Below, in pieces: positions 541 through 11,111 of a stretch of DNA of 64,000 nucleotides. Each line of letters opens with the position of its first letter. The first letter of the stretch is position 1. A program made the position numbers and the translations under genes. The notes under the pieces were generated by a model. It saw nothing but the letters and a program-made list of their open reading frames with translations, ran no database searches and was not told where the DNA came from. This DNA comes from a phage: the sequence record PZ053912.1, one strand, 5' to 3'.

Positions 541-1705
541 CGAAATCTTCCATTTCGTCAAGGTCGTTTTCTATATCTGCTGCAGACGGAGCATCAGAAG
601 TTTTAACCGGAACTTTAGTTGTTGCTTTGCAATTAATAAGGTCATTAACAGCGTCATCAACTTCTTTAATAGAAGAGATAGCACCTAGTTTATATTTAGT
701 TTCAATTGCATCTCGGAAAGGTTTGTGTTTAAACAACGGTCCCCAGAATTCTACACAATCAGTAGCTTTAGCACGCCATGATTTCTCTTCACGAATCATT
801 TCGCCTGTTTCTTCGTCAAGGAATTCTCGAGCATACCAACCAGCTTTAGGCTTAACCACAAAACCGATTTCAGTTGCCATTTCTAACAAGCCACTGAATG
901 GGTCGATACCACCATCGAAATTAACCGTGATTGGGAAAGTAGATTTCTCTTTAACTGTACGAGATTTTTCTGCTTTCAACGTGAAGTCATAACCGGTCAA
1001 TTCTGTACCTTCTTTAACCTGACGTTTAGAGATAAAGAATACGGTGTTAGCAGAGTAAAGAATACCTGTGCCACCGCCCATAATCTCTTTAGGATACAAT
1101 CCGCCAATTTCCATTGCTGTATGGTTGATTGCAACACATGGAATATCTTTAATAGTCAGATAAGGAGTCACAATGCGGAACAGAGATTTAAGTGCCTTAG
1201 CACGAGACATATCACCTACGACTTTCTCGTTCAATGCATCTTCGGTTTCTTTCTTAGATGCAGTATTACCGATTGAATCGATAAAGATAATAACTTTATC
1301 ACCGCGTTCAATCGCGTCAAGCTGATTAGTCATATCAACTTTAAGTTGTTCGACAGATTGAATCGGAGTATGAACTACACGGTCTAAATCAACACCCATT
1401 GAACGAAAATAAGATTCTGAAGCACCAAATTCTGAATCATAGAACAAACAAATTGCATCTTTATATTTCTTCATATATGCTGCAACCATGGTCAGTCCAA
1501 ACAACGTTTTAAAGTGTTTAGAAGGAGCAGCAAAAATAGTTAAGCCTGATTGCAACCCGGCATTCAGTGCACCACCTAATGCAATATTCAACATCGGAAT
1601 ACGAGTAGGGACTTCATCGCGATTATTAAACAGCTTAGACTTAGTCAAGTCTGCAGTCATTTTAGAAGTAGAAGCTTTAATCAGACGAGATTTTAAATCA
1701 GACAT
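533..1705 (-). CDS. uvsX: UvsX RecA-like recombinase
   Basis: 390 aa; MSDLKSRLIKASTSKMTADL... and RecA-fold core recalled from T4 UvsX. Confidence 0.95.
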   Translation of the reverse strand: MSDLKSRLIKASTSKMTADLTKSKLFNNRDEVPTRIPMLNIALGGALNAGLQSGLTIFAAPSKHFKTLFGLTMVAAYMKKYKDAICLFYDSEFGASESYFRSMGVDLDRVVHTPIQSVEQLKVDMTNQLDAIERGDKVIIFIDSIGNTASKKETEDALNEKVVGDMSRAKALKSLFRIVTPYLTIKDIPCVAINHTAMEIGGLYPKEIMGGGTGILYSANTVFFISKRQVKEGTELTGYDFTLKAEKSRTVKEKSTFPITVNFDGGIDPFSGLLEMATEIGFVVKPKAGWYAREFLDEETGEMIREEKSWRAKATDCVEFWGPLFKHKPFRDAIETKYKLGAISSIKEVDDAVNDLINCKATTKVPVKTSDAPSAADIENDLDEMEDFDE

Positions 1706-1804
1706 TGTATTTTTCCATAGGCATCATTATATTTTACTCATGTTTAAAAGATAAGATGATTATATACTAAGGGTTATACAGCATTTAAAACTTTAAACAG
1801 GCTC

Positions 1805-2353
1805 TTAACGAGCCCATTTGATAATTTCTGTAATCAAATAATTACGTTCGCTTGCATTAAATCCTATAACTTTGTTAGCACCGTCATGATTAAGTAATTG
1901 ATACGTTTGGATTTTGTTATGAATTGCAAACTCTTCAAAATATGAAATGACTGTATTAAAACCGAATGAAGACAAAGTAATAAGATCGTCTTCAAAACTT
2001 TCAGTCATTTCGTTACGTGTTAAAATAATTGTGAACACATCATGGTTTTGGCAAAGACGAACATAATCCTGTTCATAAACGTCAAGAACCGAGTCCGCAT
2101 CTTGTCGAATACGTCCATAAACCCAGTTACTAATATATCCACGGTCTAACAGATAAATCTTAGTAGGGTCTAAATAATTCAACATCGTTTCGAAACAGCC
2201 AACTTCATTTCGAGACTTAACATCGAAACGTCCATCAACTGTTCGTTTAGGGAAATCAATCTTTACATATCTTTCACTAATTTCCATTATGTCATTAATG
2301 AAAGTTGTTTTACCAGCATTATCCGGGCCATCTACTAAAATAATTTTAGCCAT
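1805..2353 (-). CDS. P-loop NTPase, small kinase-like protein, substrate unknown
   Basis: 182 aa; Walker A GPDNAGKTT at residues 9-17; sits in the block between uvsX and gene 42. Confidence 0.5.
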   Translation of the reverse strand: MAKIILVDGPDNAGKTTFINDIMEISERYVKIDFPKRTVDGRFDVKSRNEVGCFETMLNYLDPTKIYLLDRGYISNWVYGRIRQDADSVLDVYEQDYVRLCQNHDVFTIILTRNEMTESFEDDLITLSSFGFNTVISYFEEFAIHNKIQTYQLLNHDGANKVIGFNASERNYLITEIIKWAR

Positions 2354-2354
2354 T

Positions 2355-3254
2355 TTATTCCTCGATTACGACATCTTCATATTTAGGTATATTATACGGC
2401 GAAGAAATTAAAGCGTTAAAGTAGATGAACTCGCCAAGACCTGGATGGAATACTTCTTCAGGATTTTCGAAATATTGAATCTTCGGCCGTCCTTTAAGAA
2501 TTTGATAGTACTCAGTTTTAGTTGGTTTAAAAATTCGAATCAGCGCTTCTTCAGGATACTTATTTCTGTCGAAGCTATTATTTGGATCGGTTATATAAAG
2601 CGGTTGGCCTAATTGAATTGCACATTCAACCACTTGTTCAAAACGATAGCACGGGTCACTAATTCGAAATGGATGAAAAATACCATCTAGATGAATAGGA
2701 GCCAAATCACCTACAAGACGCTGCATGATGGAAGGACGTATAACTTTCTGGGTTACGATAATCTTATTACCATCTGCACCTGCGTTAACCAGCACTTCTT
2801 TTTGACGTTCATTCAACACAGTAGTTTGAAGTGAACGATTAACCGACAACATATCAGTTTTTAAGAATTCGTCAATATAAAAACGTGGTTTATTAGGGTC
2901 TGCAGTGATATTGAAATTGAATTCCACATCAAAAGCGCCGTCATATCCGGTGATATCTGTGATTAGAAAATCACAATCATAATAAGCAATTAATGAATCA
3001 ACCACAAATTCATTTTCAGACCAGAAATATTTACGAGTGTTATACGCGTTATCTTTATACCATAATGGAACAAACTTAAATTCTGGAAAAAGACGTTCGC
3101 ATTCTTTAATATCAGATGCATTACGTGGATATGTAATCACATCACCCGGATTAGCACGGTGCAAATGAAGTTGGAAGTTGCCATCCTTAAGGATAGCATA
3201 CTGTCCAGTTTCATAAGACCGCATACTCAAGATAGGTACGCGGAAATTAGCCAT
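2355..3254 (-). CDS. Hypothetical protein at the locus where T4 has beta-glucosyltransferase; candidate DNA sugar transferase (inference only)
   Basis: 299 aa ORF tightly packed between the P-loop gene and gene 42; no resemblance to T4 beta-gt or any motif I recognise. Confidence 0.4.
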   Translation of the reverse strand: MANFRVPILSMRSYETGQYAILKDGNFQLHLHRANPGDVITYPRNASDIKECERLFPEFKFVPLWYKDNAYNTRKYFWSENEFVVDSLIAYYDCDFLITDITGYDGAFDVEFNFNITADPNKPRFYIDEFLKTDMLSVNRSLQTTVLNERQKEVLVNAGADGNKIIVTQKVIRPSIMQRLVGDLAPIHLDGIFHPFRISDPCYRFEQVVECAIQLGQPLYITDPNNSFDRNKYPEEALIRIFKPTKTEYYQILKGRPKIQYFENPEEVFHPGLGEFIYFNALISSPYNIPKYEDVVIEE

Positions 3255-3970
3255 TAGTCAAGGAATCCTTTAACATAATCAAAATCACGTTCAAACACAT
3301 GGGCACTTACCATGGTATGAGTATAATCACCAACTTCTACACCACATTCGTTAGCGATATAATGAAGTAATTTTCCTTGGAGATAAAAATCCAACTGCAT
3401 AACAACAGCACAGTTCTGAGAACGCATATGACAGTGGGTATAAAGCTTACCATCACGAATATAATAAGTCACTGAGTCAGTACATGGATATTCAAGTGTT
3501 TCGTCCGAATCAAGCAAAGCCTGATCTGAACTTTCAAGAATTTGAAACACAACTCTTCGAGAGTTAGGTTTCTCTTTAAGTTCTTTGAGAAGAGCTGGTA
3601 ATTGGGCCGCAATGCGAGGACCATAGAAAGTGTTGAAGTTCGCCGGCAAAACATCTGATTTTGGTTTAGAAATAAATTTAGCGACATTAGGATATGCCTT
3701 AAACGCTTCTTCTGCGTTGGTACCACCAGAAATCATAAACTTCCAGAAGTCTTCGGCATATTCATAAGAGATGCGGTTAATACGTGGGTCGGTCATTTTG
3801 AATGATGATGGAGTGTCAACAACTACTGTCATAGACCCAATTTCATTACAACGTCCAATACGAGAATCAGTTACGAATTCCGGGTTTTCTAAAATTTCAC
3901 GATTGACTGCTTTAAATGCGGTTTGAAAATCTGCGGCTTTGATATATTTCATTGTGTTATGTTTTCCCAT
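3254..3970 (-). CDS. 42: dCMP hydroxymethylase (thymidylate synthase family)
   Basis: 238 aa; CTDSVTYYIRDGKLYTHCHMRSQNCAVV resembles the active-site block of T4 gp42/thymidylate synthases; T4 position of gene 42. Confidence 0.8.
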   Translation of the reverse strand: MGKHNTMKYIKAADFQTAFKAVNREILENPEFVTDSRIGRCNEIGSMTVVVDTPSSFKMTDPRINRISYEYAEDFWKFMISGGTNAEEAFKAYPNVAKFISKPKSDVLPANFNTFYGPRIAAQLPALLKELKEKPNSRRVVFQILESSDQALLDSDETLEYPCTDSVTYYIRDGKLYTHCHMRSQNCAVVMQLDFYLQGKLLHYIANECGVEVGDYTHTMVSAHVFERDFDYVKGFLD

Positions 3971-3990
3971 GTTTACCTCAATACAATTTA

Positions 3991-4014
3991 TTATATACTC
4001 AATTCGTAAAGCTT
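3991..4014 (-). promoter_or_regulatory. Candidate MotA-type middle promoter upstream of gene 42
   Basis: Minus strand AAGCTTTAC (MotA-box-like) about 11 nt upstream of TATAAT, about 20 nt before the gene 42 ATG. Confidence 0.3.
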
Positions 4015-4146
4015 ATTTGAATTTCTTGACAATGTTGATATAACGTAAAGCTTCAGCATCGATACTTCCAAGAACACTATGAAGAAATGCATCAGCGTAG
4101 TATTCCAATTGAACAGGTTTCTTTAATCACTTTAGCCGCTTTAGTT

Positions 4147-4170
4147 TCAAACAGGCCCTTATGGGCCTGT
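4147..4170 (-). terminator. GC-rich perfect palindrome AAACAGGCCC-TTAT-GGGCCTGTTT (10-bp stem); terminator-like hairpin after the 386-aa gene
   Basis: Seen directly; no clear U tract. Confidence 0.35.
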
Positions 4171-4249
4171 TTAAGAATTTGTTCGTTGCTGTTAATTTTC
4201 ATAGTCAAAATCTCTTCATTAAGTTGGTGGTTAAAAGTTTTTCTAGAAA

Positions 4250-5410
4250 TCATTCCGGGTACCTCAAAGCGTCATCAGAGTTAGTTATATCAATAATAGA
4301 TATAGAGTTTTCTGCTAACCCATTTTTAGATAACTGACGTTTATAATATCTTTCACAATATGTACACGTCGTCCCGCAGATTTCATTAGCACAATCGAAA
4401 TCTGGATGTCTGAACCACCTTTTTTCTAAAAAGCCGTCTAACAAAGAGGTTTCAATATTTACTGTATGTGAAAACTCAATTTCGTTTTCAAGAGTGAAAA
4501 TAGTCTCTAAAGGCTTCCACAGTTCTAACAAATTACCTTCAAACTTTTCAGAAGCGTATGCTTCAAGAACTTTCAAAATGTAGTCTGTGCTACCTGTACG
4601 TCCTGAAACTTTGAATTGAGTGATACCAATATCATTATAAAGTTTCAAATCTTGAGGACGAACAAAACGAGTTCTCAACCAGTTAAATGGGTCTGTATCA
4701 CGAGCTTTAATACAGTGCTGCATAGGATATCCGTTTAAGGATTTAGCATCATCAGCTGTAACATCAGTACTATGGAAAATATAGCAAGAGTCACGATAGC
4801 TACAATGTGTTGTATACCCTTTACCAGCATTAGAACAGAACTCATTTACAAGAACTTCAAATATTATATTGTTCTTATTGCAAAACTCTGCTGCACGCTT
4901 CAGGAAAGAAACTGAACGGTTCTTATGAATTCCACAGCAGACCTTTTTGATATTATATTGGTCATGCAAATATTTGATTTGAGTTACAGCATCGACATGT
5001 AGAATTGTTGAAACTTCAATCTCAATGTCTTTATTGACTTCACGAACAATTTCCATAACAACAGGGTTAGCGATAGTAATACGCCATACGCCTATTGACC
5101 AAAGATACTGAACATAATCCTGAATAGCTTTCTTCTTCCACTCAACTAGTTCTCTTTTTGAACCAGGATTTATCGTGTTGAGTGTATAGTTAAAGCAAAT
5201 ACCTAATTCGTTACAACGTTTAACGTAATCTTCTAACATCTTTTTGTCAACGTCAGGAAGCCTAAAATCAGGTCTGGCTGCTACAAAAGCCATTTCTCTT
5301 GTAGAGCCGTATACTTCATTTATCAAGCTATTAGGATAAGTTTTATTGAGCTCTACGATTTTATCAAGAAGAGCTAAATCAAAATTCGTTCCGATTTTAA
5401 AAGTATTCAT
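4250..5410 (-). CDS. Cys-rich enzyme-like protein of unassigned family; possible Fe-S protein
   Basis: 386 aa; Cys clusters CSNAGKGYTTHCSYRDSC and C-terminal CANEICGTTCTYC (contains CxxxCxxC); lies inside the sugar-nucleotide gene block. Confidence 0.45.
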   Translation of the reverse strand: MNTFKIGTNFDLALLDKIVELNKTYPNSLINEVYGSTREMAFVAARPDFRLPDVDKKMLEDYVKRCNELGICFNYTLNTINPGSKRELVEWKKKAIQDYVQYLWSIGVWRITIANPVVMEIVREVNKDIEIEVSTILHVDAVTQIKYLHDQYNIKKVCCGIHKNRSVSFLKRAAEFCNKNNIIFEVLVNEFCSNAGKGYTTHCSYRDSCYIFHSTDVTADDAKSLNGYPMQHCIKARDTDPFNWLRTRFVRPQDLKLYNDIGITQFKVSGRTGSTDYILKVLEAYASEKFEGNLLELWKPLETIFTLENEIEFSHTVNIETSLLDGFLEKRWFRHPDFDCANEICGTTCTYCERYYKRQLSKNGLAENSISIIDITNSDDALRYPE

Positions 5411-5467
5411 TTTTTTACATCTCGCGTTAATTGATGCGATGGTTTTTTGCAGGTCTTACTTAAATTA

Positions 5468-5854
5468 TTATAGATTCGGTTTATATGATTTAAATGTTTC
5501 GAATTCGCCTTTATTCATAAGAGCTTTGAATTCGTCAGGACGCATAGCTTTGTCGTCGATAATCCAATCATATACTGGTTTATGTGTTAGCAAATTATGG
5601 TACTTCAAGCCAATGTTTGCCAAGTTCTGAATCAGACTTGGGAGAATGTCAATTGCTATACGACCAGGACCTACTGACTTCATACCACGAGCAGTGTAAA
5701 GCGTTATGGTATGCCCTGCATCATACAGGGCATTAATGGCAGACACCATTTCGACGTCTGGTTTGAAGTTCACGTAATCACGATTGTTATTCCACTCTGT
5801 TATACAATCATCGACATCAAAACAAAGATTAAGCATGTTTTCTACACGGTGCAT
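5468..5854 (-). CDS. HAD-superfamily phosphatase, small
   Basis: HAD motif I FDVDDCIT and C-terminal KPxxDWIIDD; start ambiguous (ATG at 5869, 5854 or 5836); 5854 gives a TAATG overlap with the upstream stop. Confidence 0.65.
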   Translation of the reverse strand: MHRVENMLNLCFDVDDCITEWNNNRDYVNFKPDVEMVSAINALYDAGHTITLYTARGMKSVGPGRIAIDILPSLIQNLANIGLKYHNLLTHKPVYDWIIDDKAMRPDEFKALMNKGEFETFKSYKPNL

Positions 5855-7542
5855 TAGATTCGTTCCCATTGATGAGTGATATCGCCACCGATTGGACGAT
5901 AGGAAACACCAGTTTCTTTATCAGTTAGTACCCATTTACCAGGATTTTTTGTAATCAGAGTAGCCGTTACAGGTTCTGCTACGTCATAACTAATAGAGCC
6001 GTCTTGAAGTACACGGCCCATGTTACGTAATTGCTTAGTCAGAAGTTCCATACCTTTATAATATGCGGCTACCGCTTTAAGTGGATTATTCTTGAAATAA
6101 CCACCTAATGCAATCCAGATAATTGCCACTGCCAAATGATGATACTCGTTAAACGAACTCATCTTTCCATATTTGTAAACTAATGGATTGATGTTAATAG
6201 TCACATTACAAGTTGTTTCATCAATAGTAAACTGTCCCCAGGTCGGATTAGCATTGAATTCATCATAACCTGAAACAGCATAAAGCACTTTAGCTTCATC
6301 GTACAATTTTGGCCCGTAAATCTTGGTTTCGCCAAAATATCCACGAGGGTCGATAAACTTGACTTCACCATTATCAGTAATCATAGTATTACTGAAGTTC
6401 GGGTCACCATGAATAACAGAGTACTGTCCCTGAGAACGGTTATGATAACGAATAAGGTGTTCTAAAGCTTGTTTCAACATTGGCTTCAGACGTCCAATCT
6501 TAGTGTAGTTCACATGTGTGATTTTACCGAATGAATCAATCAATGGTTGAATACTTTCACAACGATCAATAACTTTCGTATAGAACTCTTTAGTGAAATC
6601 ACGGCGAACAGTTTCAGGACTTACAAAATAAGTGTCTGTGCTGAATTTCAGTGCATCTAAAATTGCATCAACAATTTGTGGACGAGCAAGACTCGATTTG
6701 GATTTAATATATTCAAATGCCGGCTTACCTTTAATGCGTTCCATAATAAAGTGGCCGCCAGGATGATAACTTACAATCCGTGGAACTGAATCTGATTTAA
6801 CTTTCTTATACCAATTGACTTCATCTTTTTGAAGTGCAACGCCCTGTTCTGTTAAAGCAATCTTTGTTACCGTTTCTTCGCCAATTTCAACTGCATTAAA
6901 ACTACGATTAAGTTCACGAACTTCATGAGCTTTTTCAAGTTTAGGCATATCACCAAGGTCGATGATATTCATAAGCTCTGATTTATTGAATGCGCTGCCG
7001 TAAAGGAATTCTACGAAATCACGTCCTTTGCAGTATTCATGAATTTCCTCATCAGTAGAACCCATATAGAATTCCCAGTCTTTGAACTGATAAATTCCTA
7101 CAACATTACCACCTGTTGAACCTACATTAGTGATATTTTCACCGTCGAAATTATATCGACATTCGTCACCCTTAACATAGATTGCGTTAACATTCCAAGA
7201 CCACGAACCAAAATCAGGAATAATATCACACCAGTTAACAATTACATTATGGCCGTCTAAATCTTTGTGCAATTTAGCAAGAGCATAAGCAGAACCATAC
7301 GCTTCATCAACTGTACGAATAGTCACATTGAACCCTTCTTGCTCACAATAAGCTCGAACAGTTTCAGCAAATTTTGAATGAACTACTACAATAATTTCAT
7401 CTGCGCCAAGGTCAGAATAAATTGTATACAAATTGCTCAGAATAGTGTCTTGTTTATAGTTAACAAGCACCTTAGGAATATGATGCGTTATTGGATACAA
7501 ACGAGTTGCCAGTCCAGCACCAAGAATAACAGCTTTTTTCAT
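5854..7542 (-). CDS. Bifunctional sugar-phosphate nucleotidyltransferase (N-terminal) / APH-choline-kinase-fold kinase (central-C-terminal)
   Basis: 562 aa; N-terminal AVILGAGLATRL glycine-rich nucleotidyltransferase signature; later VIHGDPNFSN ... KFIDPRG resembles the catalytic loop of APH/choline kinases. Confidence 0.7.
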   Translation of the reverse strand: MKKAVILGAGLATRLYPITHHIPKVLVNYKQDTILSNLYTIYSDLGADEIIVVVHSKFAETVRAYCEQEGFNVTIRTVDEAYGSAYALAKLHKDLDGHNVIVNWCDIIPDFGSWSWNVNAIYVKGDECRYNFDGENITNVGSTGGNVVGIYQFKDWEFYMGSTDEEIHEYCKGRDFVEFLYGSAFNKSELMNIIDLGDMPKLEKAHEVRELNRSFNAVEIGEETVTKIALTEQGVALQKDEVNWYKKVKSDSVPRIVSYHPGGHFIMERIKGKPAFEYIKSKSSLARPQIVDAILDALKFSTDTYFVSPETVRRDFTKEFYTKVIDRCESIQPLIDSFGKITHVNYTKIGRLKPMLKQALEHLIRYHNRSQGQYSVIHGDPNFSNTMITDNGEVKFIDPRGYFGETKIYGPKLYDEAKVLYAVSGYDEFNANPTWGQFTIDETTCNVTININPLVYKYGKMSSFNEYHHLAVAIIWIALGGYFKNNPLKAVAAYYKGMELLTKQLRNMGRVLQDGSISYDVAEPVTATLITKNPGKWVLTDKETGVSYRPIGGDITHQWERI

Positions 7543-7723
7543 GTTGTGGTCCTCATTGGTAAGTAGGAGTATTGTACACTATTCTAGTTAAAGCATTCAT
7601 ACTTTGCTTGTAGTCCAATCATAATCCATCCAATTACAAGTGTTGGAATCATTACTGGAGCCGTTAAGCTCCAGTAGATAGTCATGACAAGCATCAATAG
7701 TAAAAGTCCTATTGTTATTGCTT

Positions 7724-8359
7724 TCATTGTTCGCCTCGTAACATGGCACCTAGTGCACCGCCAGGGTGGAACTTAAGGAAGTCATTAGAGGTAAATCCAC
7801 GCTCAGACGAAAGGTTGATAGCAAACGTATCGATAAGCGCTAACAACAATGTAGTGGACATGGTCGGAGCCAGAGAATTCTCATCAACCTCTACTGCGAT
7901 GCCTGTACAGAAAGAGTAATCAAAAAGGGCTTCATTTTCTTGTGGAATGTCCGGGTTACAATGCAACAGAATCTGTTTGACGTTCGGACGAATCATTTTA
8001 AGATGCTTAGCCACGCCTATCATTTCTTCAGTTTTACCAGAACGACTAATATGAATCAACACATCATTAGGCGCAATGAATCCTGCATCACCGTGAGAAT
8101 AATGCCCAGTGTTCAAGTACATACTCGGGATACCGAGTGAAGCAAATGTCTCAGAAGCTTTAGTTGCAATATTAGCATTCTTACCAACACCTGTAATAAT
8201 TACTCGGCTTTCATAATTACTAAGTCCTGGGCGTCGAAGAGTTTCTAGAATAGCATTATAACGAGCAGGGTTTTGACTAATTACTTTGGCCATAGCGGCC
8301 AAAGAAGAAGCTTGTTTTATGATTGCGTCAATAGCGATAGTAATAGGAGTAGTTTTCAT
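7724..8359 (-). CDS. SIS-domain sugar-phosphate isomerase, KdsD/GutQ-like arabinose-5-phosphate isomerase core without CBS domains
   Basis: 211 aa; GVGKNANIATKASETFASLG, HGDAGFIAP, ISRSGKTEE and C-terminal FHPGGALG match my memory of the KdsD SIS domain. Confidence 0.75.
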   Translation of the reverse strand: MKTTPITIAIDAIIKQASSLAAMAKVISQNPARYNAILETLRRPGLSNYESRVIITGVGKNANIATKASETFASLGIPSMYLNTGHYSHGDAGFIAPNDVLIHISRSGKTEEMIGVAKHLKMIRPNVKQILLHCNPDIPQENEALFDYSFCTGIAVEVDENSLAPTMSTTLLLALIDTFAINLSSERGFTSNDFLKFHPGGALGAMLRGEQ

Positions 8360-8399
8360 ATTTCTCTCATTTAATTAGTTTACCGTCCATGACATTATA

Positions 8400-11111
8400 T
8401 CAAAAATCGAACATATCGAACAGAGATGCTTTCTTCTCGTAATCGAGTTTCGCTGCTGATGTGAATCCTTCAAGTGGTTTAATAAATGTCTTCTCAAGGA
8501 GAACAGTGTAGTCCATCCAATGAAGTACGTCGTCTTTAATTAAATCGGTGATTTCAGTACCAGAAGGCCATGCGATACATTTATCACCGAATGGGTTTCC
8601 TTCACGTAAAGGCAGAACATATACTTTTTCACCTTCTACAACTTGCGGTGCATCGATATTACCTTTGATAGCCCGGTTATACGTCAGAATTCCACGAATA
8701 TGGAACGGGCATTTGGGACCAGGGAATCCACCTACATCATATTTAGCAATGTTATTCGCAGAAGATACCGACGCGATGCTAATATAATTCAATTGACGGA
8801 ATTCTTTTTCAAACTCTTTAAAATATTCTTGTAATGATTCTTCACCTTCTTGAAGCATACGACGAATACATTCTTTAAGAGCTTTCTGTACTGCTTTAGG
8901 AGTCGAAGATTTCTGAGTCTCTAGACCCATGATTTTGAGTTTAGGCTCAGCGTAACGAGTACCTTCCATATCCCACACGTTTAATGCATAACGTTTCTTA
9001 CCAGTCCAGAATCCACCAATACCTTTAGAACCGAGTGGAGGCCCAGCGATAGCTTCTCGGTCCATGAACATTAAGTGTTGTTTATTGTTCATGTATTCAC
9101 ACATTTCACGGAAACCTCTATCAATAGCTGGTTCCATACGTTCACGAGCGAACTTATCTAAGAAGTCTACCCAATGGTTGGTATCACGGAATTTAGATTC
9201 ACCAACCTTATCGATAATTTTATCAGCAGATACGTAAATAGAGTCTGTATCACCATAAAGAACGAAAGCTTCACCTTCTGTACCACAAACTTCATTCAGA
9301 TATTCATTAACTTTACGTTCAATCCACTGTAAAGCCATTTGACCAAATGTTGTGATTGCAGTAGCATTACGCAAATCATAATAACGGAACCAAACGTTGC
9401 CAAGTGCACCATAAAGTGAGTTGATAAGCAATTTACGGTTAATTTGGGCAGTCATACCTGCAACTTCAGTACGTTGAGCTCTAAACAACATTTCATTAAG
9501 AGATTTAGCAGACAACTTTTTAATCTTTTCTTTAATCTCATCGCTGAAGTCGAAACGATAATCAACATCTAATGGTTCGTCAACAGAAAGATTAGGATTA
9601 TGCAATGCCTCTTTAATTATTTCGCCATTACGTTGAGCCGCAAGCATATAACCTTTATGTTCTTTACGTTGATTAAAGACCTTAGTGATTTCAGTTGGAA
9701 CTACACCATCACGGTCTTTATAATACATCATGCCGTTAGGAGAGCAACTGTACACATCGGAAGGACGTTCAGCGATTGCGTTAATATAATCATGTAGTGG
9801 AGCTACTTTAAACGTTCCTGCTATTGTTTCTGGGCTAATATTCACTTGGCGAATAATACTTGGATACAGAGATGTAAGGTCGAAACTCATTACATATTTG
9901 TATCGATTTGGAATAGGTTCCTTAACAAAAGCGCCGGGATAAGGTTGAACCGGGTGAGAACGACCTTGTGGAATCACCTTGTTCTGCTCTTTAAGGCTAT
10001 TAAAAATAATAGCATCCCATGTTTTAATTGGGCTAAACACAGATTGAATCTGTATCTTAGCATAATAACCCATGTCCAAACTCAAGTTGATGAACTGACG
10101 CTTAGCATCAATTTGCAATACACGATACACGTCGATAATGTTATAAGAAATATATCGTTGGTGATTGCTTTCACGAAGCTTAGAAATAGGGCCGTCATAT
10201 TTCAGTTTACCAACGTTCAATTCAAATTCTGAAATGTAATCCAGAGAATATGACGGTTGATTGGTAAAAGAGAATTTTTTGTAAAGGTCAATGTAATCAA
10301 GAACAGAGATACCGAACAATGTAATGATTTCACGAGAACCATACATGTTTTCGATAACTTTAACACGAGTTTTACGATGTGGTGATAAACGTTTCGCAGT
10401 AGATTCGCCAAAAATATTCTTGATTCGGTTATACACATATGGAATATCAAATGACTCAACGTTCCATCCAGTCAAAATGACAGGAGTTTTCTGTTGCCAG
10501 AAGTTGAGATATTCCATCAACAATTCTTTTTCGTTATCGAACGGCATATAAATGATTTTATCGATAATTTCTGATGGAACTTCATCACCACCTTGTTCTT
10601 GAAGCTTAGCCGCAATTTCGATAGACCATTCTTCTACATTACCATATGGAGAATTCAATAGATCAAATACGTAGAACCTGTCATCAATTGAGTCATAATG
10701 GGTGATAGCATCAATCGGATGTTTTGCTTGCGACGGCTCAGGGAACCCATCCGGAGATGTTACTTCGATGTCGAAGTTAGCCACACGAATTTTTGTATGG
10801 TCGTATTTGATTTCATAGTTATAAGTGTCAGACAAATACGCCAATTTGAAATCGTCCATGCCAAGTGCTTCAAGTCCGATATCTTCCATGCGTTTAATCC
10901 ATTGGGAGGCATCACGCATATTAGCGAACAACTTACGAGTGCACGGCTTACCGTAGATATCGAAATATTTCGTAGCCTGACTTTCTGGACAATGAGCAAA
11001 CAGTGATGGTTTATATTCTACTTCACGAGTACGTTCACGACCATTAGAATCGATGTAACGTTCAAAAATTGAATCACCAATCTGTTCAACCGTTAAGTAA
11101 AATTCTTTCAT
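8400..11111 (-). CDS. 43: DNA polymerase gp43 (family B)
   Basis: 903 aa; MKEFYLTVEQIGDSIFERYIDSNGRERTREVEYKPSLF..., exo motif FDIEV, pol motifs SLYPS and YGDTDS; recalled as RB69-type gp43. Confidence 0.97.
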   Translation of the reverse strand: MKEFYLTVEQIGDSIFERYIDSNGRERTREVEYKPSLFAHCPESQATKYFDIYGKPCTRKLFANMRDASQWIKRMEDIGLEALGMDDFKLAYLSDTYNYEIKYDHTKIRVANFDIEVTSPDGFPEPSQAKHPIDAITHYDSIDDRFYVFDLLNSPYGNVEEWSIEIAAKLQEQGGDEVPSEIIDKIIYMPFDNEKELLMEYLNFWQQKTPVILTGWNVESFDIPYVYNRIKNIFGESTAKRLSPHRKTRVKVIENMYGSREIITLFGISVLDYIDLYKKFSFTNQPSYSLDYISEFELNVGKLKYDGPISKLRESNHQRYISYNIIDVYRVLQIDAKRQFINLSLDMGYYAKIQIQSVFSPIKTWDAIIFNSLKEQNKVIPQGRSHPVQPYPGAFVKEPIPNRYKYVMSFDLTSLYPSIIRQVNISPETIAGTFKVAPLHDYINAIAERPSDVYSCSPNGMMYYKDRDGVVPTEITKVFNQRKEHKGYMLAAQRNGEIIKEALHNPNLSVDEPLDVDYRFDFSDEIKEKIKKLSAKSLNEMLFRAQRTEVAGMTAQINRKLLINSLYGALGNVWFRYYDLRNATAITTFGQMALQWIERKVNEYLNEVCGTEGEAFVLYGDTDSIYVSADKIIDKVGESKFRDTNHWVDFLDKFARERMEPAIDRGFREMCEYMNNKQHLMFMDREAIAGPPLGSKGIGGFWTGKKRYALNVWDMEGTRYAEPKLKIMGLETQKSSTPKAVQKALKECIRRMLQEGEESLQEYFKEFEKEFRQLNYISIASVSSANNIAKYDVGGFPGPKCPFHIRGILTYNRAIKGNIDAPQVVEGEKVYVLPLREGNPFGDKCIAWPSGTEITDLIKDDVLHWMDYTVLLEKTFIKPLEGFTSAAKLDYEKKASLFDMFDF

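What the first reader, a model, noticed from the sequence alone, without database searches (positions are those of the whole stretch)
5854..7542. Fused nucleotidyltransferase / APH-like kinase, a one-polypeptide route from free sugar to NDP-sugar
The N-terminal AVILGAGLATRL nucleotidyltransferase signature and the central HGDPNFSN...IDPRG kinase catalytic loop sit in one 562-aa protein. That resembles the LicA/LicC division of labour but fused. With the adjacent HAD phosphatase and SIS isomerase it would complete an activated-sugar pathway. The NTP used (UTP, CTP, other) cannot be read from the sequence.
Basis: partly seen in the sequence, partly recalled or inferred. Interest (0 to 1): 0.55.

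Follow-up and report, generated by a model that had tools for sequence, protein, structure and literature searches.

The report
Phage bifunctional UDP-arabinose synthesis enzyme
This gene of an RB69-like T4-type phage encodes a two-domain enzyme, already described in the literature as AfhE, that helps turn a host pentose phosphate into UDP-arabinose so the phage can decorate its DNA cytosines with arabinose; it is real but already known.

Summary
Window 5854..7542, minus strand, is an intact 562-codon gene with an N-terminal sugar-phosphate nucleotidyltransferase domain and a C-terminal APH/choline-kinase-fold domain. All catalytic motifs are invariant in 45 homologues down to 25% identity.

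The window is an RB69-like Mosigvirus. The protein is 560/562 identical to the gene product of coliphage HY126. A 2026 NAR paper, citing He et al. [quoted passage not shown] Thomas et al. (2018) had already shown that RB69 ORF053c and ORF052c are one gene.

Two points differ from the literature:
- **Substrate:** the reported route does not start from free sugar. It runs Ru5P → Ara5P (SIS) → Ara-1,5-P2 (kinase domain) → Ara-1-P (HAD) → UDP-Araf (transferase domain). The phosphatase therefore acts between the two half-reactions, the same logic as GmhA/HldE/GmhB in ADP-heptose synthesis.
- **Purpose:** the product feeds arabinosylation of 5-hydroxycytosine in phage DNA.

Novelty: already known. 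Side observations are widespread cellular relatives, HAD-SIS-NT-kinase four-domain fusions, and an uncharacterised U32-family gene in the module.

The parts
5854..7542 (-). AfhE-type gene (562 codons plus TAA stop): bifunctional sugar-phosphate kinase / nucleotidyltransferase
   Evidence: ORF. It is 560/562 identical to HY126 XAN60479.1 and matches PHROG 4098 end to end.
6928..7542 (-). N-terminal nucleotidyltransferase domain, about aa 1-205 (boundary approximate, taken from the model's secondary structure)
   Evidence: Pfam PF00483 matches above cut-off. The best Foldseek PDB hits are MurU, RmlA, GalU, LicC and HddC, with TM 0.65-0.69 relative to the target. G10, R14, T19, K24 and D106 are invariant or nearly so.
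7498..7533 (-). AVILGAGLATRL: G-x-G-x-x-R NTP-binding signature of sugar-1-P nucleotidyltransferases
   Evidence: G10 and R14 are conserved in 44 of 45 sequences.
6028..6927 (-). APH/choline-kinase-fold kinase domain, about aa 206-505
6388..6411 (-). HGDPNFSN catalytic loop (Brenner motif HxDxxxxN)
   Evidence: H378, G379, D380 and N385 are invariant in 45 of 45 sequences.
6340..6354 (-). IDPRG: metal-binding Asp (the DFG equivalent) followed by an invariant Arg
   Evidence: I397, D398, P399, R400 and G401 are invariant in 45 of 45 sequences.
5857..6027 (-). C-terminal tail of about 57 aa, lower model confidence, apparently specific to T4-like phage members
   Evidence: pLDDT is 70-86. Among the listed best matches, those from non-phage-type proteins stop at about residue 295-300 of the 357-aa query.
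5468..5854 (-). HAD-type phosphatase (AfhF-type, 128 aa), translationally coupled to the AfhE-type gene (TAATG)
   Evidence: Sequence overlap. It is 128/128 identical to PDB 9iqw and matches TIGR01689 at E 4e-13. The NAR 2026 paper describes its role as the Ara-1,5-P2 5-phosphatase.
7724..8359 (-). SIS-domain arabinose-5-phosphate isomerase (211 aa, no CBS domains)
   Evidence: Pfam SIS E 1e-10. NCBIfam KpsF/GutQ E 2e-32 and KdsD E 7e-31, both below the full-length cut-offs.
7584..7727 (-). 47-codon hydrophobic small ORF between the SIS and AfhE-type genes (ATGA overlap with the SIS stop)
   Evidence: Sequence read. It is annotated as a 144-nt CDS in HY126.
7571..7595 (-). T4 middle-promoter-like site (TGCTTTA, 12 nt, TACAAT) 29 nt upstream of the start; GAGGA Shine-Dalgarno 7 nt before the ATG
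   Evidence: The pattern occurs 10 times in the window against 3.7 expected. Function is not tested.
3254..3970 (-). Thymidylate-synthase homologue: 5-hydroxy-dCMP synthase of the same module
   Evidence: Pfam match. It is near-identical to PDB 9iqc/9ir2/9iqu. Function comes from NAR 2026.
2355..3254 (-). 299-aa putative DNA arabinosyltransferase 1 (RB69 gp46:47, intact here)
   Evidence: PHROG 3891.
4250..5410 (-). U32-family protein of the module, role unknown
   Evidence: Pfam Peptidase_U32 E 7e-11. A homologue 51% identical sits next to SIS and NT-kinase genes in the distant phage contig L009.

Best explanation
The gene encodes the Mosigvirus orthologue of AfhE, a bifunctional enzyme of the pathway that makes the sugar donor for arabinosylating 5-hydroxycytosine in phage DNA. 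The proposed sequence of steps is as follows. The SIS protein isomerises host ribulose-5-phosphate to D-arabinose-5-phosphate. The C-terminal APH-fold kinase domain uses ATP to phosphorylate the anomeric C1-OH, giving arabinofuranose-1,5-bisphosphate. The separate, translationally coupled HAD phosphatase removes the 5-phosphate. The N-terminal nucleotidyltransferase domain then condenses arabinofuranose-1-phosphate with UTP to give UDP-D-arabinofuranose, which the phage glycosyltransferases transfer onto 5-hydroxycytosine. Shown here: the gene, the two folds, the intact catalytic motifs, near-identity to the HY126 protein, and the genetic linkage to SIS and HAD across phages, cells and gene fusions. 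Taken from the literature, second-hand: the substrates, the order of steps and UTP.
For: The protein is 560/562 identical to HY126 XAN60479.1, in a module that is 98% identical at nucleotide level and syntenic.

The neighbouring HAD protein is 128/128 identical to PDB 9iqw, and the TS homologue is near-identical to 9iqc, 9ir2 and 9iqu. I read these deposits as belonging to the HY126 structural work; the NAR text mentions only the crystal structure of the TS homologue.

Thomas 2018 (PMC6024577) showed arabinose in RB69 DNA and showed that ORF053c and ORF052c are one 561-aa protein. I reproduced the single extra C of the RB69 record at codon 219.

The catalytic residues of both domains are invariant over 45 homologues.

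Independent linkage evidence: HAD-SIS-NT-kinase four-domain fusions exist, and a SIS homologue lies within 6 kb of the NT-kinase gene, mostly adjacent, in 36 of 81 loci examined.
Against: The primary biochemical paper (He et al. 2026) is not in the library. The substrate order and UTP therefore rest on one secondary description.

That same NAR paper is internally inconsistent. Its Table 1 lists the HAD as 'dephosphorylates Araf5p to Ara' and the kinase as 'phosphorylates Ara to Araf1p'.

The assignment of the name AfhE to XAN60479.1 is my inference from architecture and synteny.

The kinase domain misses the Pfam APH cut-off and is no closer to sugar kinases than to choline or antibiotic kinases, so specificity cannot be read from fold.

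No structure of the protein itself is in the PDB.
Confidence: 0.85

Rival explanations
1. Free-sugar route. The HAD phosphatase first hydrolyses arabinose-5-phosphate to free D-arabinose. The kinase domain then phosphorylates C1 of the free sugar, and the transferase domain makes NDP-arabinose. The two domains would thus act consecutively.
Against: The text of the same paper, citing the in-vitro work on HY126, says that AfhE is a D-arabinose-5-phosphate kinase producing the 1,5-bisphosphate and that AfhF dephosphorylates that intermediate. The well-established ADP-heptose pathway (GmhA, HldE, GmhB; textbook knowledge) shows that a kinase/transferase fusion with an intervening separate phosphatase exists. 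An invariant Arg (R400) directly after the metal-binding Asp, together with invariant R213, R327 and K418, is compatible with an anionic substrate, though this is inference only.
Confidence: 0.12
2. A fused LicA/LicC-type enzyme that activates choline, or another small alcohol or amino-alcohol, as a CDP derivative.
Against: The phage module has an arabinose-5-P isomerase and a sugar-type HAD phosphatase, and the DNA of this phage group carries arabinose. SIS linkage is conserved and SIS is even fused to the enzyme. Sequence identity to any choline kinase is only 12-16%.
Confidence: 0.02
3. An antibiotic (aminoglycoside or macrolide) phosphotransferase, or a MurNAc-recycling AmgK/MurU-type pair, unrelated to DNA modification.
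Against: These are only superfamily-level similarities (10-17% identity). The gene lies in the replication-gene region of a lytic phage, inside a DNA-modification module. There is no plausible use for antibiotic resistance or cell-wall recycling during lytic growth.
Confidence: 0.01

Closest known systems
AfhE of Escherichia phage HY126 (He et al., Nat Chem Biol 2026, as described in PMC13326640)
   Same: The sequence is 99.6% identical (560/562) and the same length. [quoted passage not shown]
   Different: There are two substitutions, G392C and T448S, neither in a conserved motif.
RB69 ORF53_52c / gp52:53 (Thomas et al. 2018; NAR 2026)
   Same: It is the orthologue, and the module is 97.5% identical at nucleotide level. 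It was proposed in 2018 as a UDP-arabinose synthesis candidate.
   Different: The RB69 GenBank record carries one extra C that splits the gene. RB69 is one codon shorter and has a locally divergent patch at codons ~227-262.
ADP-heptose pathway GmhA / HldE / GmhB (established knowledge)
   Same: The pathway logic is identical. A SIS isomerase makes a sugar phosphate. A bifunctional kinase/nucleotidyltransferase phosphorylates C1 to a bisphosphate. A separate HAD phosphatase removes the distal phosphate. The transferase domain of the same bifunctional protein then makes the NDP-sugar.
   Different: The catalytic domains are not homologous: the HldE kinase has a ribokinase/PfkB fold and its transferase has a cytidylyltransferase (HIGH-motif) fold. 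The domain order is reversed, the sugar is a heptose and the nucleotide is ATP.
AmgK / MurU (MurNAc anomeric kinase plus MurNAc-1-P uridylyltransferase)
   Same: It uses the same pair of folds: an APH-like anomeric sugar kinase plus a minimal sugar-1-P uridylyltransferase. MurU is the top structural match of the N-domain.
   Different: These are usually separate proteins. The substrate is a free amino sugar, no phosphatase step is involved, and identity is about 17%.
LicA / LicC of Streptococcus pneumoniae
   Different: The substrate is choline, not a sugar. The nucleotide is CTP and the proteins are separate.
5-methylthioribose kinase MtnK
   Different: It has no transferase domain, its 5-substituent is methylthio rather than phosphate, and it belongs to the methionine salvage pathway.

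Membership tests
AfhE-type phage bifunctional Ara5P kinase / UDP-Araf pyrophosphorylase | Orthology to the characterised HY126 protein | tested here: met
   The protein is 560/562 identical over its full length. Caveat: the link between the name AfhE and XAN60479.1 is inferred from the NAR 2026 description, because the primary paper is not held.
AfhE-type phage bifunctional Ara5P kinase / UDP-Araf pyrophosphorylase | N-terminal nucleotidyltransferase plus C-terminal kinase in one polypeptide with intact catalytic motifs | tested here: met
   G10, R14, K24, K227, E241, H378, D380, N385 and D398 are conserved.
AfhE-type phage bifunctional Ara5P kinase / UDP-Araf pyrophosphorylase | Genomic association with an Ara5P isomerase (SIS) and an AfhF-type HAD phosphatase inside a cytosine-modification module | tested here: met
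   The HAD protein is identical to PDB 9iqw.
AfhE-type phage bifunctional Ara5P kinase / UDP-Araf pyrophosphorylase | Ara5P 1-kinase and UTP:Ara-1-P uridylyltransferase activities | not testable with these tools
   Known only from the literature report for the 99.6% identical protein.
Sugar-1-phosphate nucleotidyltransferases (Pfam PF00483 NTP_transferase) | Profile match above the gathering threshold | tested here: met
   38.9 bits against a cut-off of 21.2, but only profile positions 1-101 of 245 are matched.
Sugar-1-phosphate nucleotidyltransferases (Pfam PF00483 NTP_transferase) | Complete Rossmann-like NT fold | tested here: met
   Foldseek aligns about 225-250 columns to MurU, RmlA and LicC, with probability 1.00 and TM (target) 0.55-0.69.
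APH / choline-kinase phosphotransferases (Pfam PF01636) | Profile match above the gathering threshold | tested here: not met
   17.2 bits against a cut-off of 23.2. This is a divergent member by sequence.
APH / choline-kinase phosphotransferases (Pfam PF01636) | Bilobal eukaryotic-like kinase fold with HxDxxxxN and a metal-binding Asp | tested here: met
LicA/LicC choline activation | Choline as substrate and a CDP-choline product feeding a LicD transferase | not tested
   No LicD or choline-related gene was seen among the module genes scanned in the window, and the context argues for arabinose. The enzyme works in a similar way but is not a member.
HldE (ADP-heptose bifunctional enzyme) | PfkB/ribokinase-fold kinase plus cytidylyltransferase-fold adenylyltransferase | tested here: not met
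   No PfkB or CTP_transf_like match was found. The folds are APH-like and RmlA/MurU-like. It is an analogue, not a homologue.

The most novel reading that the evidence does not exclude
The phage enzyme is one branch of a large, functionally undescribed cellular family. Full-length NT-kinase fusions occur in at least 393 species-representative bacterial and archaeal genomes, and a KdsD-like SIS gene lies nearby, mostly adjacent, in 36 of the 81 loci examined. HAD-SIS-NT-kinase four-domain proteins of about 900-1000 aa also exist, one on a contig that looks like a giant virus and one in a slime-mould transcriptome. If these also convert Ru5P/Ara5P into an NDP-D-arabinofuranose, or a related NDP-pentose, they would define a widespread nucleotide-sugar route to D-arabinofuranose in glycans that does not use polyprenyl phosphate. 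I found no description of such a route for cells in the searchable literature.
Probability: 0.35. Interest if true: 0.5.

Novelty: already known. Interest (0 to 1): 0.15.

Why it matters
UDP-D-arabinofuranose made by this enzyme is the donor for arabinosylating 5-hydroxycytosine. This DNA hypermodification shields RB69-like phages from restriction and CRISPR nucleases and exposes them to modification-dependent defences. For this window, the finding adds only a correct annotation. Many database records still call the gene 'hypothetical', 'GlmU' or 'mannose-1-phosphate guanyltransferase', and call its HAD partner 'phosphoheptose isomerase'. Wider value may lie in the uncharacterised cellular relatives and in the module's U32 gene.

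Tried and rejected
- **Primary paper.** I tried to read the primary biochemical paper (doi 10.1038/s41589-026-02150-z). It is not held. Full-text searches for AfhE/AfhF, HY126 and 'arabinofuranosylation' returned only secondary citations.
- **PDB sequence search.** The search with the whole protein found no structure of the enzyme itself, only distant nucleotidyltransferases.
- **HAD in cellular loci.** I looked for the phage-type HAD next to cellular homologues. tblastn found it only in another T4-like phage contig. An archaeal-type 127-aa neighbour shows only sub-threshold HAD matches and no BLASTP similarity.
- **Nucleotide specificity.** I considered predicting UTP, CTP or GTP from base-contacting residues and dropped it. 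I had no reliable structure-based alignment to RmlA Q83-type determinants.
- **Rejected readings.** I rejected the antibiotic-kinase, choline-activation and MurNAc-recycling readings on context (see the rival explanations).

Full report
**1. What is there**

The coordinates 5854..7542 delimit a 562-codon ORF plus TAA stop on the minus strand. Its G+C content (37.4%) equals that of the window (37.1%). With the window's composition, 562 stop-free codons have a probability of about 1e-18.

A GAGGA Shine-Dalgarno sequence lies 7 nt before the ATG. The stop overlaps the start of the next gene as TAATG.

**2. Where the window comes from**

The flanking genes are T4-type replication and recombination genes: uvsX, the 903-aa gp43 DNA polymerase, gp45, gp44/62, gp46/47 and nrdD/G.

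Megablast of 1700..8400 gives 97.5-98.2% identity over 100% of the query to RB69, HY126, JS09, ZQ3 and about 150 other Mosigvirus-type phages.

In the RB69 reference record the gene is split into ORF053c ('similar to mannose-1-P guanyltransferase') and ORF052c. Thomas et al. 2018 resequenced the region, found that C-29116 does not exist, and expressed a single 63.9-kDa protein of 561 aa, ORF53_52c (PMC6024577). Aligning the window with the RB69 record reproduces exactly one extra C in RB69 at codon 219.

**3. Domains**

- **Profile matches.** Pfam NTP_transferase matches aa 3-99 above threshold. The APH, fructosamine-kinase, EcKL and RIO families match aa ~240-410 below threshold. NCBIfam gives only partial nucleotidyltransferase matches to archaeal GlmU, AglF, RmlA, MurU and HddC.
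- **Whole-protein model.** An AlphaFold2 model built on 45 homologues is confident, with pLDDT 93.0 and pTM 0.89.
- **N-terminal domain.** Foldseek against the PDB aligns aa ~1-230 with MurU (top hit), RmlA, GalU, GDP-mannose pyrophosphorylases, LicC and HddC. LicC is also the best PDB hit by sequence, at E 2e-5.
- **Conservation.** Across 45 homologues down to 25% identity, the following residues are invariant or nearly so:
  - In the N-domain: G10, R14, T19, K24 and D106.
  - In the kinase domain: K227, E241, H378-G-D380, N385 and I397-D-P-R-G401.

  Both active sites are under selection.
- **C-terminal tail.** The last ~57 residues are less confident in the model. Among the listed best matches, they are not covered in the non-phage-type proteins.

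**4. What it does**

NAR 2026 (PMC13326640) reports the following.

- RB69-type phages carry arabosylated 5-hydroxycytosine, not hydroxymethylcytosine.
- The thymidylate-synthase homologue (window 3254..3970) is a flavin-dependent 5-hydroxy-dCMP synthase.
- RB69 gp55 (SIS), gp52:53 and gp51 (HAD) are proposed to convert ribulose-5-P to NDP-arabinofuranose.
- Citing He et al. [quoted passage not shown]
- AfhF is a Mg-dependent phosphatase that converts Araf-1,5-P2 to Araf-1-P.

The window protein is 560/562 identical to the only protein of this architecture in the syntenic HY126 module, XAN60479.1. The adjacent HAD protein is 128/128 identical to PDB 9iqw, and the TS homologue is near-identical to 9iqc, 9ir2 and 9iqu. 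I read these deposits as coming from that structural work.

I therefore assign the gene as the AfhE orthologue. The steps are: Ru5P → Ara5P by SIS (inferred from homology); Ara5P → Ara-1,5-P2 by the kinase domain (literature); → Ara-1-P by HAD (literature); → UDP-Araf by the NT domain (literature); → DNA by the glycosyltransferase at 2355..3254 and a second one outside this window (literature proposal).

**5. Caveats**

I could not read the primary paper. The NAR paper's Table 1 still lists the older order, with the HAD making free arabinose and the kinase acting on free arabinose. Fold alone cannot decide between the two orders.

**6. Independent support for the pathway linkage**

- **Protein database search.** The search returns the phage family at 97-40% identity: T4-like phages of Escherichia, Serratia, Edwardsiella, Yersinia, Pectobacterium, Acinetobacter, Pseudomonas and Shewanella. 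Below that come proteins of 890-955 aa with the domain order HAD-SIS-NT-kinase, and one SIS-NT-kinase protein of 761 aa. These are classic Rosetta-stone fusions of all four activities.
  - One fusion cluster of 52 members lies on a contig with a 1429-aa SNF2 helicase and a C48 peptidase, which looks like a giant virus.
  - Another fusion is from the Ceratiomyxa fruticulosa transcriptome.
- **Species-representative genomes.** A scan of these genomes finds at least 393 with full-length relatives at 25-30% identity. They include Gastranaerophilales, Oscillospiraceae, Lachnospiraceae, Helicobacter, Elusimicrobia, Treponema, Massilia, CPR bacteria, Micrarchaeota and Thermoplasmata.
- **SIS adjacency.** In 36 of the 81 loci examined, a homologue of the window's SIS protein lies within 6 kb, mostly directly adjacent.
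- **Kinase-domain search.** An exhaustive phmmer search with the kinase domain alone finds 1303 representative clusters. In the listed best matches, the domain usually starts near residue 200-245 of a ~500-560-aa protein, meaning it is NT-fused.

**7. Comparison with known systems**

The pathway logic is that of ADP-heptose synthesis: the GmhA SIS isomerase, the HldE bifunctional kinase/nucleotidyltransferase, and the GmhB HAD phosphatase acting between the two HldE reactions. However, the catalytic folds are different, APH-like and RmlA/MurU-like rather than PfkB and cytidylyltransferase-like. It is an analogue, not a homologue.

At fold level the closest pairs are AmgK/MurU and LicA/LicC. 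The closest chemistry among structural neighbours is MtnK, which phosphorylates C1 of a 5-substituted pentofuranose.

**8. Verdict**

The biological purpose, DNA hypermodification, was missed. The gene was proposed for this role in 2018 and reported as biochemically characterised in 2026, so it is already known and interest is low.

The residual novelty lies outside the finding proper, in the undescribed cellular and giant-virus relatives and in the U32-family gene of the module.

Noticed in passing
window 4250..5410 (-); L009 8308..9453: A 386-aa U32-family protein belongs to the modification module but has no assigned role. NAR 2026 lists it only as 'sugar or heterocycle reductase'. A homologue 51% identical sits beside SIS and NT-kinase genes (only 30% identical) in a distant phage contig that carries T4-type topoisomerase II. 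Eleven Cys are conserved between the two, including a C-terminal C-x4-C-x3-C-x2-C. The U32 family includes the O2-independent hydroxylases RlhA (ho5C in rRNA), TrhP and UbiU/V. It could therefore be an anaerobic route to 5-hydroxycytosine, complementing the O2- and flavin-dependent TS homologue. No PDB relative was found by sequence.
   Followed up: partly
P0080, P0082, P0086, P0089, P0093; L003 5545..8283: Four-domain HAD-SIS-NT-kinase proteins of about 890-955 aa exist. One cluster of 52 members lies on a contig with a 1429-aa SNF2 helicase, a C48 peptidase and an asparagine synthase, which looks like a giant virus. Another is from the slime mould Ceratiomyxa fruticulosa transcriptome.
   Followed up: partly
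L010-L086 (genome-contig loci): At least 393 bacterial and archaeal species genomes encode full-length NT-kinase relatives at 25-30% identity, and 36 of the 81 loci examined have a KdsD-like SIS gene nearby, mostly adjacent. In Helicobacter sp. 13S00401-1 (L043) the gene sits between a TagD-like cytidylyltransferase and a SIS-CBS protein with an N-terminal extension, three genes upstream of a LicD-family transferase. This points to a surface-glycan role and possibly a different nucleotide.
   Followed up: partly
L006 7397..10835: An archaeal-looking contig (diphthamide synthase, translin, an L16-family ribosomal protein) carries, in order, a SIS gene (37% identical to the phage SIS), an NT-kinase gene (509 aa), a 127-aa protein with only sub-threshold HAD matches, and a 312-aa unknown. 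This is the same gene order as the phage cassette.
   Followed up: partly
window 7571..7595 (-): The sequence TGCTTTA, 12 nt, TACAAT lies 29 nt upstream of the AfhE-type start and fits the T4 MotA-dependent middle-promoter consensus. The pattern occurs 10 times in the window against 3.7 expected, and 8 of the 10 are on the minus (coding) strand.
   Followed up: partly
window 7584..7727 (-): A 47-codon, strongly hydrophobic ORF (MKAITIGLLLLMLVMTIYWSLTAPVMIPTLVIGWIMIGLQAKYECFN) lies between the SIS and AfhE-type genes, with an ATGA overlap onto the SIS stop. It is annotated as hypothetical in HY126. RB69 annotates a shorter ORF here, 'similar to T4 42-imm intercistronic region'.
   Followed up: no
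window 2355..3254 (-): The 299-aa putative arabinosyltransferase is intact here and in HY126, but is split into ORF046c and ORF047c in the RB69 record. NAR 2026 attributes this to a second sequencing error.
   Followed up: partly
window 6770..6862 (-), codons ~227-262 of the AfhE-type gene: A locally divergent patch relative to RB69, with a cluster of substitutions and a one-codon length difference, sits in an otherwise ~97% identical gene. This suggests mosaic exchange within the N-lobe of the kinase domain among Mosigviruses.
   Followed up: no
L008 (Dyella japonica DSM 16301 contig, 385 bp) and L007 (167-kb contig in a 'bacterium' MAG): These are phage sequences inside bacterial genome assemblies. 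L008 is a 385-bp contig whose translation is 97% identical to this protein, probably coliphage contamination. L007 is a whole T4-like phage genome, carrying the complete SIS, AfhE, HAD, TS-like, GT and kinase module but no U32 gene in the stretch examined.
   Followed up: no
database annotations of the module: Misleading names persist. The AfhE-type gene is annotated as 'GlmU bifunctional protein', 'mannose-1-phosphate guanyltransferase' or hypothetical. The HAD phosphatase is called 'phosphoheptose isomerase' in RefSeq RB69 and PHROG 1238, and 'Capsule biosynthesis protein' in PDB 9iqw.
   Followed up: yes
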